Part shown: piece by piece, positions 26,058 through 26,802 of the stretch
Layout of the letters: each line of letters starts with the position of its first letter
How positions within the stretch are numbered: position 1 is the stretch's first letter
NCBI GenBank assembly: GCA_964016885.1
Contig: OZ024758.1
Coordinates: 13,702,001-13,766,000, forward strand
Reading direction: 5' to 3'
DNA: 64,000 bases
Source of the DNA: Eledone cirrhosa
Lineage: Eukaryota
Program-made: the position numbers and the translations under genes
Notes under the pieces: generated by a model
Database searches by the model: none
What the model saw: only the letters and a program-made list of their open reading frames with translations
What the model was told of the DNA's origin: nothing

Positions 26058-26064
<7 letters not shown>

Positions 26065-26370
26065 TTCAAATATTAACAAAATAGATATTCTTGTGATTAA
26101 TTAAATTTTATTATACATATTTCAGAGGTACTTGAATCAGGTTCAACAGTACGTCCTCATCAGATAAAATAAAATGATACATGACATACCCTGACATGTT
26201 AGTTCCTTGATTAAATCTTAACCATCTAACATGTCAGGGTATGTCATGTATCATTTTATTTTATCTGATGAGGACGTACTGTTGAACCTGATTCAAGTAC
26301 CTCTGAAATGTGTATAATAAAATTTAATTGGTCACAAGAATATCTATTTTGTTAATATTTGAATTAATAT
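26058..26370. mobile_element. Palindromic element A (145-bp arms, 23-nt loop) with a hammerhead in each arm; Penelope-pLTR-like
   Basis: Arms 26058-26202 and 26226-26370 with 3 mismatches; hammerhead on + at 26258-26323 and on - at 26105-26170; preceded by (TA)n. Confidence 0.75.
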
Positions 26371-26460
26371 TAATAACTCTGGAAAATATTTTCTTGTAGA
26401 GTGCTTCCAATCTACTGTAAAACTCATTCTTTGATGTACTCATTGAATCTTGTTTAACTC

Positions 26461-26506
<46 letters not shown>

Positions 26507-26510
<4 letters not shown>

Positions 26511-26802
26511 AAAAGAGATGAAATCGAAAATGCAACTGGAGTCTTATTTTTTTTTTAAAATATATATATTTATTTGGTTCCTTTACCGGTTTCGCAGTTC
26601 TTCTGCTTTTCAAAAGGTGAGCTGAGATGGAGGGTCTGTGGTTTTTCTCACATCAGATGTGAGAAAAACCACAGACCCTCCATCTCAACTCACCTTTTGA
26701 AAAGCAGAAGAACTGCGAAACCGGTAAAGGAACCAAATAAATATATATATTTTTTTTTTAAAATAAGACTCCAGTTGCATTTTCGATTTCATCTCTTTTT
26801 CT
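26507..26802. mobile_element. Palindromic element B (~148-bp arms centred on 26655) with a U3-A8 variant hammerhead in each arm
   Basis: catc-a-gatg centre; hammerhead on + at 26693-26730 CCUU-UUGAAAA-GCAG aagaa CUGC-GAAA-CCGG-UA|AAGG, mirror copy on - at 26580-26617; (TA)n on both sides. Confidence 0.75.

What the first reader, a model, noticed from the sequence alone, without database searches (positions are those of the whole stretch)
26058..26802. Two adjacent ~300-bp near-perfect palindromes, each carrying a hammerhead ribozyme in both arms
Seen: element A (arms 26058-26202/26226-26370) and element B (26507-26802, 1-nt centre) are unrelated in sequence. Each is a fold-back next to (TA)n, and each encodes a complete type I hammerhead on both strands (A: 26258-26323 + / 26105-26170 -; B: 26693-26730 + / 26580-26617 -). 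Known: Penelope-like elements carry minimal type I hammerheads with palindromic stem III in their pLTRs and often insert as inverted structures. Inference: these are ORF-less, self-cleaving hairpin retroelements, like retrozymes but palindromic. Transcription from either strand would give the same rod-like RNA with a ribozyme and its antisense, in a viroid-like arrangement.
Basis: partly seen in the sequence, partly recalled or inferred. Interest (0 to 1): 0.8.

Follow-up and report, generated by a model that had tools for sequence, protein, structure and literature searches.

The report
Back-to-back Penelope stubs carrying hammerheads
Two 300-base DNA palindromes with a hammerhead ribozyme motif in each arm are real, but they are likely dead, back-to-back stubs of Penelope-like jumping genes, an insertion pattern already described, and their RNA is predicted to zip up so that the ribozymes cannot fold.

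Summary
Both palindromes and all four type I hammerhead motifs are real. B has the U3-A8 core variant already reported in Penelope-like elements (PLEs). A's stems covary with three relatives in the window.

The reading as a self-cleaving, viroid-like hairpin retroelement fails for B. Public reads show B's arm is a very high-copy repeat, but only about 1.5-6% of depth continues into the mirror arm. Most copies run on upstream for 113-201 or more bases, or join (TA)n, and other fold-back points exist. A third palindrome (55324-55612) is asymmetric, and a solo copy shows its spacer is element sequence.

This matches the published PLE pattern of an inverted, 5'-truncated copy set head-to-head (PMC3846280, PMC8557442) and of paired minimal hammerheads on opposite strands (PMC4209133). 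In read-through RNA the antisense arm comes first, and the hammerhead fold costs 69-104 kcal/mol.

Verdict: new families of a known kind. The residual interest is a truncation and fold-back hotspot useful for PLE mechanism.

The parts
26027..26061 (.). About (TA)17 microsatellite at the left end of A; likely the insertion target
   Evidence: sequence
26058..26202 (-). Element A, left arm: inverted copy, ribozyme sense on the minus strand, 3' end pointing left
26105..26170 (-). Type I hammerhead in A's left arm (core 26163, helix III TATGTA, predicted cut after 26112)
26203..26225 (.). 23-nt spacer of A; origin not determined (no other copy in the window closer than 7 mismatches)
26226..26370 (+). 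Element A, right arm
26258..26323 (+). Type I hammerhead in A's right arm (core CTGATGA at 26265, long helix II, helix III TGTGTA, predicted cut after 26316)
26465..26507 (.). About (TA)21, left part of the microsatellite that B interrupts
26507..26654 (-). Element B, left arm (inverted copy)
26580..26617 (-). U3-A8 minimal hammerhead in B's left arm (core 26613, predicted cut after 26584)
26654..26658 (+). Centre of B; a point where most family reads leave B and continue with upstream family sequence, (TA)-rich sequence or an inverted piece
   Evidence: tables 2, 4, 7
26656..26802 (+). Element B, right arm; part of a very high-copy repeat family that extends further 5' in most copies
26693..26730 (+). 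U3-A8 minimal hammerhead in B's right arm (core TTGAAAA at 26697, helix II GCAG/CTGC, helix III CCGG, predicted cut after 26726)
26804..26822 (.). (TA)9, right part of the interrupted microsatellite
55324..55612 (.). Element C, a third head-to-head hammerhead palindrome of another family, in (TA)n. Left arm truncated inside the hammerhead; right arm has the full motif (core 55485, predicted cut after 55512); spacer is element sequence
22197..22345 (+). Solo, one-armed copy of family C, 86% identical over 146 nt including C's spacer
3230..3299 (-). Solo hammerhead related to A
22715..22798 (-). Solo hammerhead related to A
54865..54937 (+). Solo hammerhead-like copy related to A, with an altered core

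Best explanation
A and B are likely two separate, dead insertions of Penelope-like retrotransposons from two families, each made of two short 5'-truncated copies of the hammerhead-bearing end joined head-to-head in AT-rich DNA. Shown: the arms, the four hammerhead motifs, the (TA)n context, and for B a very high-copy family in which most copies continue upstream of the fold-back point or end there in other ways. Inferred mechanism: a PLE reverse transcriptase/GIY-YIG endonuclease encoded elsewhere nicks (TA)n, copies the RNA from the element's 3' end through the hammerhead, and often stops about 40 nt upstream of it (26654-26658 in B). The second arm is then made as an inverted copy of the same template, either by fold-back self-priming on the first cDNA or by priming from a nick on the other strand and joining the two cDNA ends through a few paired bases. 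The hammerhead would work, if at all, as a dimer or with protein help in tandem parent RNAs. In these palindromes it is predicted to be locked in double-stranded RNA.
For: (1) Hammerhead type: minimal type I with palindromic helix III. B's UUGAAAA core is printed for a PLE-associated Schistosoma hammerhead (U3-A8 described). Structure is conserved across A and three relatives: 94.5% of 55 cells paired, 5 of 11 pairs with changes on both sides, 0/500 shuffles for pairing and covariation score. (2) B family: 2067 contigs laid in X1, summed word depth 1.39 million in the arm against 11.3 in the unique flank; 1338 raw reads in X15 (another study), none in the flank. Depth left of the centre is 1.5-2.0% of arm depth in X15 and 1.9-5.9% in X1. 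Loose ends before 26654-26656 in X15: 479 reads with one shared upstream sequence (median 113 nt), 181 (TA)-rich, 66 resembling B's own outer end in inverted orientation. 444 reads end at one place, which points to a shared restriction site about 115 nt upstream (inferred). X5 (another organism label) has a 300-nt contig with 0 differences over 26654-26725 that runs 201 nt further upstream. Other joints at 26714/26662, 26700/26669, 26690/26660, 26687/26658, 26630/26694; 3-5 nt deletions at the centre. (3) Element C has unequal truncation, and its spacer is family sequence. (4) Both arms of B share alleles at 26692-26693 that 342 of 421 and 349 of 427 X15 reads lack, so both arms come from one template or were homogenised. 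(5) Published pattern: an inverted 5'-truncated copy next to the 5' end, and (TA)n bias (PMC8557442); head-to-head repeats with palindromes at the junction (PMC3846280); dual minimal hammerheads 100-700 bp apart on opposite strands (PMC4209133); a purified PLE protein cuts and extends both strands at AT-rich DNA and does not need hammerhead cleavage (PMC11167929). (6) Folding: hammerhead fold penalty 69.1 (B) and 103.8 (A) kcal/mol in the full palindrome against 4.1 in one arm.
Against: No RT or GIY-YIG frame was linked to either family: no genome is held, and 148 of 209 complex frames in the window gave no such Pfam hit. The tool states that summed contig depth is no copy number, X1 may be the source sample, and RAD reads sample few loci unevenly. 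Positions 26726-26831 were skipped, so a common 3' end, a tail and helix I covariation in B were not seen. No 30-40 bp tail or target duplication is evident at A or B. Many contigs fold back at nearly the same centre (summed depth 26,907 left of it in X1), which a hotspot explains but so would a re-mobilised palindrome. The covariation test rests on 5 related sequences and a structure I drew from them; two of its five measures were not beyond shuffles (45/500, 153/500).
Confidence: 0.8

Rival explanations
1. A palindromic subfamily arose once from a PLE stub and is itself copied as a hairpin unit by a PLE protein acting in trans: a non-autonomous fold-back retroelement whose ribozymes are passengers.
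For: Many X1 contigs span a centre at or near 26655 (summed depth 26,907 left of centre against 11.3 for single-copy flank), and X15 reads do too. A, B and C are all about 290-310 bp. Non-autonomous PLE derivatives are known (PMC8557442; 10.64898/2026.07.22.740005).
Against: 94% or more of arm depth does not fold back there. Centres differ by 3-5 nt deletions at three positions, and at least five other joints exist. C is asymmetric. A perfect 145-bp RNA duplex is a poor template and a likely silencing target (inference).
Confidence: 0.1
2. They are MITE-like non-autonomous DNA transposons with very long terminal inverted repeats that insert at TA, and the hammerheads were captured.
For: Fold-back shape, about 300 bp, TA context. 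Other fold-back repeats with TTAA-CCCTTT ends occur in the window (the piggyBac likeness is recalled).
Against: Most B-family reads are one-armed and longer upstream. Solo one-armed relatives of A and C exist. Covariation points to selection on an RNA fold.
Confidence: 0.04
3. One reading: self-cleaving, viroid-like rod RNAs; either strand gives a hairpin whose ribozyme cuts and circularises it.
For: An intact core is present on both strands in both elements. Isolated motifs fold helix II well (pair probabilities 0.91-0.94 for the pairs that form).
Against: On each strand the antisense arm is transcribed before the ribozyme; the stems have probability 0.0 in the full RNA. There is one ribozyme per strand per element, so no cut-out monomer. 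The A x B helix III duplex is unfavourable (+0.7 kcal/mol) against -8.3 for B x B. Single minimal hammerheads showed no cleavage in PMC4209133. The palindrome is not the family's usual form.
Confidence: 0.02
4. Assembly fold-back artefacts.
For: Near-perfect arms; no listed contig spans the whole stretch.
Against: Arms differ by substitutions; both palindromes return to unrelated flanks; centre-spanning contigs and raw reads occur in short-read data, including another study; the right flank matches X1 and X4 contigs with 0 differences over 26832-27200.
Confidence: 0.01

Closest known systems
Inverted, 5'-truncated pLTR structures of endonuclease-bearing Penelope-like elements (PMC3846280 passages and Discussion; PMC8557442 passages)
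   Same: Head-to-head inverted copies, palindrome at the junction, 5' truncation, AT-rich or (TA)n targets, arms of 100-200 bp.
   Different: Here both copies are cut down to the hammerhead end with no reading frame between them; no tail or target duplication seen; parent element not identified.
Minimal type I hammerheads of metazoan PLEs, including the U3-A8 variant and dual motifs on opposite strands in Schistosoma (PMC4209133, parts 1-2 of 4 and part of supplement 2)
   Same: Short helix I, palindromic helix III, the UUGAAAA core (B), mostly solo copies without a reading frame, pairs 100-700 bp apart on opposite strands. Element C fits their consensus, including the extra base before helix II.
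   Different: A and B lack the extra base between positions 9 and 10.1 as I fold them; the A group has G10.1-U11.1 in place of G-C, a helix II region of 30-44 nt and a 6-nt helix III palindrome. These sequences were not found in the supplements searched.
Non-LTR retrozymes of animals (PMC7229834 passages; 10.64898/2026.07.22.740005 part 1 of 5)
   Same: Short, no reading frame, type I hammerhead, low G+C, likely PLE-derived.
   Different: Retrozymes are head-to-tail tandems of 150-450 bp whose consecutive ribozymes release circular RNA; A and B are head-to-head with one ribozyme per strand.
PAc Poseidon element of the anole, studied in vitro (PMC11167929, parts 1-2 of 4)
   Same: Offers the chemistry needed: both target strands cut and extended at AT-rich DNA; hammerhead dispensable and protein-assisted.
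   Different: No sequence relationship tested; in PAc the reading frame starts at helix II, whereas the matching ATG in A is closed after five codons (sequence).

Membership tests
Penelope-like elements (EN+) | Single frame with PLE-type RT and GIY-YIG endonuclease linked to the same terminal repeat | tested here: inconclusive
   No RT or GIY-YIG Pfam hit in 148 of 209 frames; not expected in short truncated copies; no genome to search; metagenome, viral and prokaryote scans gave no relative.
Penelope-like elements (EN+) | Minimal type I hammerhead with palindromic helix III near the element's end | tested here: met
   compared. Rfam gave no match.
Penelope-like elements (EN+) | Interspersed copies with variable 5' truncation | tested here: met
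   B: (upstream continuation, several junction types). C. Not tested on reads for A.
Penelope-like elements (EN+) | Inverted 5'-truncated copy adjacent at the 5' end (head-to-head) | tested here: met
   Ribozyme sense points outward from the centre in A, B and C.
Penelope-like elements (EN+) | Insertion into AT-rich DNA or (TA)n | tested here: met
   B and C inside (TA)n, A at one end of (TA)n; (TA)-rich loose ends.
Penelope-like elements (EN+) | Shared 3' end with optional 30-40 bp tail | tested here: inconclusive
   Arms end nearly symmetrically; 26726-26831 was skipped.
Non-LTR retrozymes | Head-to-tail tandem monomers, each with a hammerhead | tested here: not met
   Each core matches only itself and its inverted partner in the window; no same-strand repeat joint listed.
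Non-LTR retrozymes | Expression as circular RNA | not testable with these tools
   No raw RNA reads were available.
MITEs | Copies share both inverted ends and a fixed interior | tested here: not met
   For B about 1.5-6% of depth crosses the centre and the centres vary. Not tested for A.
Viroid-like RNAs with ribozymes in both polarities | Ribozyme able to fold and cut in each polarity of a replicating circular RNA | tested here: not met
   Computed only: stems have probability 0.0, penalty 69-104 kcal/mol in the full hairpin. Cleavage itself not testable here.

The most novel reading that the evidence does not exclude
In this genome a palindromic subfamily of B (hundreds to thousands of loci folding back within a few bases of 26655) is itself copied as a hairpin unit by a Penelope protein, making a fold-back, non-autonomous PLE class that masks its own ribozyme. 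Such units in long 3' UTRs would seed perfect double-stranded RNA for A-to-I editing, traces of which may be fixed in the arms (4 of 4 arm differences in A and B read A-to-G on the ribozyme strand).
Probability: 0.1. Interest if true: 0.65.

Novelty: new member of a known kind. Interest (0 to 1): 0.27.

Why it matters
As it stands it is ordinary transposon debris of a described kind. Its use is as material. How PLEs make inverted ends is called undefined in PMC8557442. Family B offers a very large set of junctions at one 5-bp point, resolved three ways (straight join to TA, short inverted piece, full mirror arm), which could separate fold-back self-priming from two-strand priming by computation alone. 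It also adds U3-A8 and long-helix-II hammerhead families from an animal that I take, from recalled repeat types and not from a call, to be an octopus.

Tried and rejected
Whole genome: not held. Rfam: nothing at gathering score; only generic hairpin (miRNA-type) matches far below cut-off at E up to 10. Pfam on 148 of 209 frames: five weak unrelated hits below cut-off, no RT or endonuclease. The 145-codon frame across B (26559-26996) had no hit and was treated as chance. Pattern scans: metagenome contigs 0 for a B motif and 0 for an A motif; viral contigs 0; prokaryote genomes 1 match, inside an unrelated archaeal sequence with no hammerhead after it, about what chance gives for 20 bases. The commonest upstream continuation of B does not occur in the window. 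Earlier findings: none by sequence, place or the long word list; the short word list showed 8 of 52 hits, all phage hammerheads, not relevant. Paper searches found no description of these families or of a PLE-derived palindrome that moves as a unit; the library lacks most subscription papers. Short motifs of A, B and C were absent from the held text of the PMC8557442 supplement (line breaks could hide them). File 1 of the PMC4209133 supplement could not be searched, the PMC13282606 supplement was listed but not read, and bioRxiv supplements were not seen; Repbase and Dfam could not be searched. Rejected: that B's outer 55 bp is duplicated host DNA, because a similar piece lies next to the centre point in 66 X15 reads (may be few loci). 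A hammerhead-like hit at 24381 was taken as chance, and one at 23568 was left out of the alignment because its helix III is not palindromic.

Full report
Observation. The two fold-backs are there as described. A has 145-bp arms at 26058-26202 and 26226-26370 with three mismatches and a 23-nt spacer. B has arms at 26510-26654 and 26656-26800 around one central base, with one substitution and one flipped six-base T/A block. Inverted-repeat scores of 133 and 117 compare with a maximum of 15 in 100 local shuffles. A and B share no more than 8 identical bases in a row. B interrupts a TA microsatellite; A touches one on its left. They lie about 2.4-3.1 kb downstream of the apparent last coding exon of a flotillin-1 gene on the plus strand (exon 23038-23202 matches flotillin-1 at E 6e-11; the last exon and stop near 23688 are read by eye).

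Hammerheads. My descriptor found a type I hammerhead in all four arms, with predicted cuts after 26316, 26112, 26726 and 26584. The looser scan gave 7 hits in the window against 0.07 expected. Rfam did not report them. B's core is UUGAAAA, the U3-A8 covariant described for Schistosoma PLEs (PMC4209133), and the same core is printed in that paper's supplement for a PLE-linked motif. Helix III is only a 4-6 base palindrome, the type reported to cut weakly and as dimers. A has three diverged solo relatives in the window (3288, 22787, 54876). On their alignment, 94.5% of 55 cells pair and 5 of 11 pairs change on both sides; pairing and covariation score exceed all 500 shuffles, while two other measures do not (45/500 and 153/500). 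The set is small, related, and the structure was drawn from it, so this supports but does not prove selection on the fold.

Is the palindrome the unit? No genome is held, so I laid four public runs on B's centre, right arm and right flank, 26630-27200. The arm is a very high-copy repeat: 2067 contigs in X1, with summed word depth 1.39 million against 11.3 in the flank (not a copy number), and 1338 raw reads in X15, from another study, with none in the flank. Only 1.5-2.0% (X15) and 1.9-5.9% (X1) of arm depth continues into the mirror arm. Most X15 reads leave B at 26654-26656: 479 with one shared upstream sequence (median 113 bases), 181 with TA-rich sequence, 66 with a piece like B's own outer end. 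444 reads end at one position, which I read as a restriction site shared by many loci about 115 bases upstream. A contig from another organism label (X5) is identical over 26654-26725 and runs 201 bases further upstream. Five other joints and three small deletions at the centre are listed. So B is a minority end-structure of a longer, one-armed family, formed at a preferred stopping point.

The window gives an independent case. Element C (55324-55612) is a third head-to-head hammerhead palindrome in (TA)n. Its left arm stops inside helix II, its right arm has the whole motif, and a solo copy at 22197-22345 matches the right arm together with the spacer (86% over 146 bases), so the spacer is element sequence and the two arms are unequally truncated.

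Mechanism. Published PLE insertions often carry an inverted 5'-truncated copy next to their 5' end and favour (TA)n (PMC8557442, passages). Head-to-head repeats with palindromes at the junction were attributed to self-priming (PMC3846280, passages and Discussion). Pairs of minimal hammerheads 100-700 bp apart on opposite strands were noted in 2014 (PMC4209133). A purified PLE protein cuts and extends both strands of AT-rich DNA, and its hammerhead is dispensable and protein-assisted (PMC11167929, parts 1-2 of 4). I infer that a PLE protein acting in trans made A and B by copying only the last 145 or so bases twice in opposite directions. Both arms of B share alleles at 26692-26693 that about 81% of X15 reads lack (342 of 421, 349 of 427), so they derive from one template or were homogenised later. 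A one-base loop is too tight for direct fold-back, so either a larger loop was trimmed or two cDNA ends were joined through a short match with a central mismatch; the data do not decide. No RT or endonuclease frame was found in 148 of 209 frames, so PLE membership rests on the RNA motif and the insertion anatomy.

Function of the RNA. On either strand the antisense arm is made before the ribozyme. In the full hairpin (about -230 kcal/mol) the hammerhead stems have computed probability 0.0, and forcing the fold costs 69.1 (B) and 103.8 (A) kcal/mol, against 4.1 in a single arm. Each strand holds one ribozyme per element, and A and B cannot form a joint helix III (+0.7 against -8.3 kcal/mol for B with B). 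The palindromes are therefore predicted not to cut themselves. They differ from retrozymes, which are head-to-tail tandems (PMC7229834, passages; 10.64898/2026.07.22.740005, part 1 of 5), and from viroid-like RNAs. If transcribed they would be long double-stranded RNA, a likely target of editing or silencing (inference).

Rivals. A re-mobilised palindromic subfamily is not excluded, because many contigs fold back within a few bases of 26655 (10%). A MITE origin (4%), active viroid-like RNA (2%) and artefact (1%) fit poorly; centre-spanning short reads from another study, arm differences and matching flanks argue against artefact.

Novelty. These families were not found in seven paper searches or the supplements searched, but Repbase, Dfam and most subscription papers could not be checked, and Lunse et al. 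was seen only as a reference. PLEs are reported as recently active in Octopus vulgaris (PMC13282606, passages); that this window is from an octopus is my recall from repeat types. PMC8969392 (passages) lists inverted pLTRs as a routine curation feature. Verdict: real, correctly seen, and explained as new members of a known kind; interest 0.27.

Noticed in passing
window 26310, 26330, 26331, 26622: All 4 arm-versus-arm substitutions in A and B read A-to-G on the ribozyme-sense strand when polarised by relatives or family reads. This could be an edited RNA template, but it is post hoc, about three events; the 2 differences checked in C are not of this kind and family variants show no A-to-G excess.
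   Followed up: partly
window 26832-27200, run X4: X4 (88 million letters, kind not on record) holds the unique flank at depth 55.3 with an arm-to-flank ratio near 65, against about 120,000 in X1. It may be a transcriptome, in which case the palindromes could lie in a long flotillin-1 3' UTR; unproven.
   Followed up: no
window 46365-46489 and 22903-22964: A fourth, shorter palindrome beside (TA)n with a one-armed relative inside (TA)n; no complete hammerhead found by my scans.
   Followed up: partly
window 965-1250, 37926-38313, 29880-30250: A frequent repeat with TTAA-CCCTTT ends (piggyBac-like, recalled) also forms fold-back pairs.
   Followed up: no
window 23510-23568, minus strand: Hammerhead-like motif with an 8-bp helix I and non-palindromic helix III in the apparent last flotillin-1 intron, antisense to the gene.
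   Followed up: no
window 26551-26556 and 26754-26759: Six T/T mismatches between B's arms are one flipped block between short T and A runs, likely a micro-inversion or homopolymer error.
   Followed up: partly
window 22391-23688, plus strand: 3' exons of a flotillin-1 gene; its introns hold several PLE-like stubs (22197-22345, 22715-22798, 22903-22964).
   Followed up: partly
window 46097-46258: AT-rich inverted repeat with 61-bp arms at 98% centred on a short (TA)n run.
   Followed up: no
window 62404-62709 (+), 46600-47040 (-), 56929-57372 (+): Frames that look like decayed non-LTR retrotransposon fragments (by recall; no Pfam hit).
   Followed up: no
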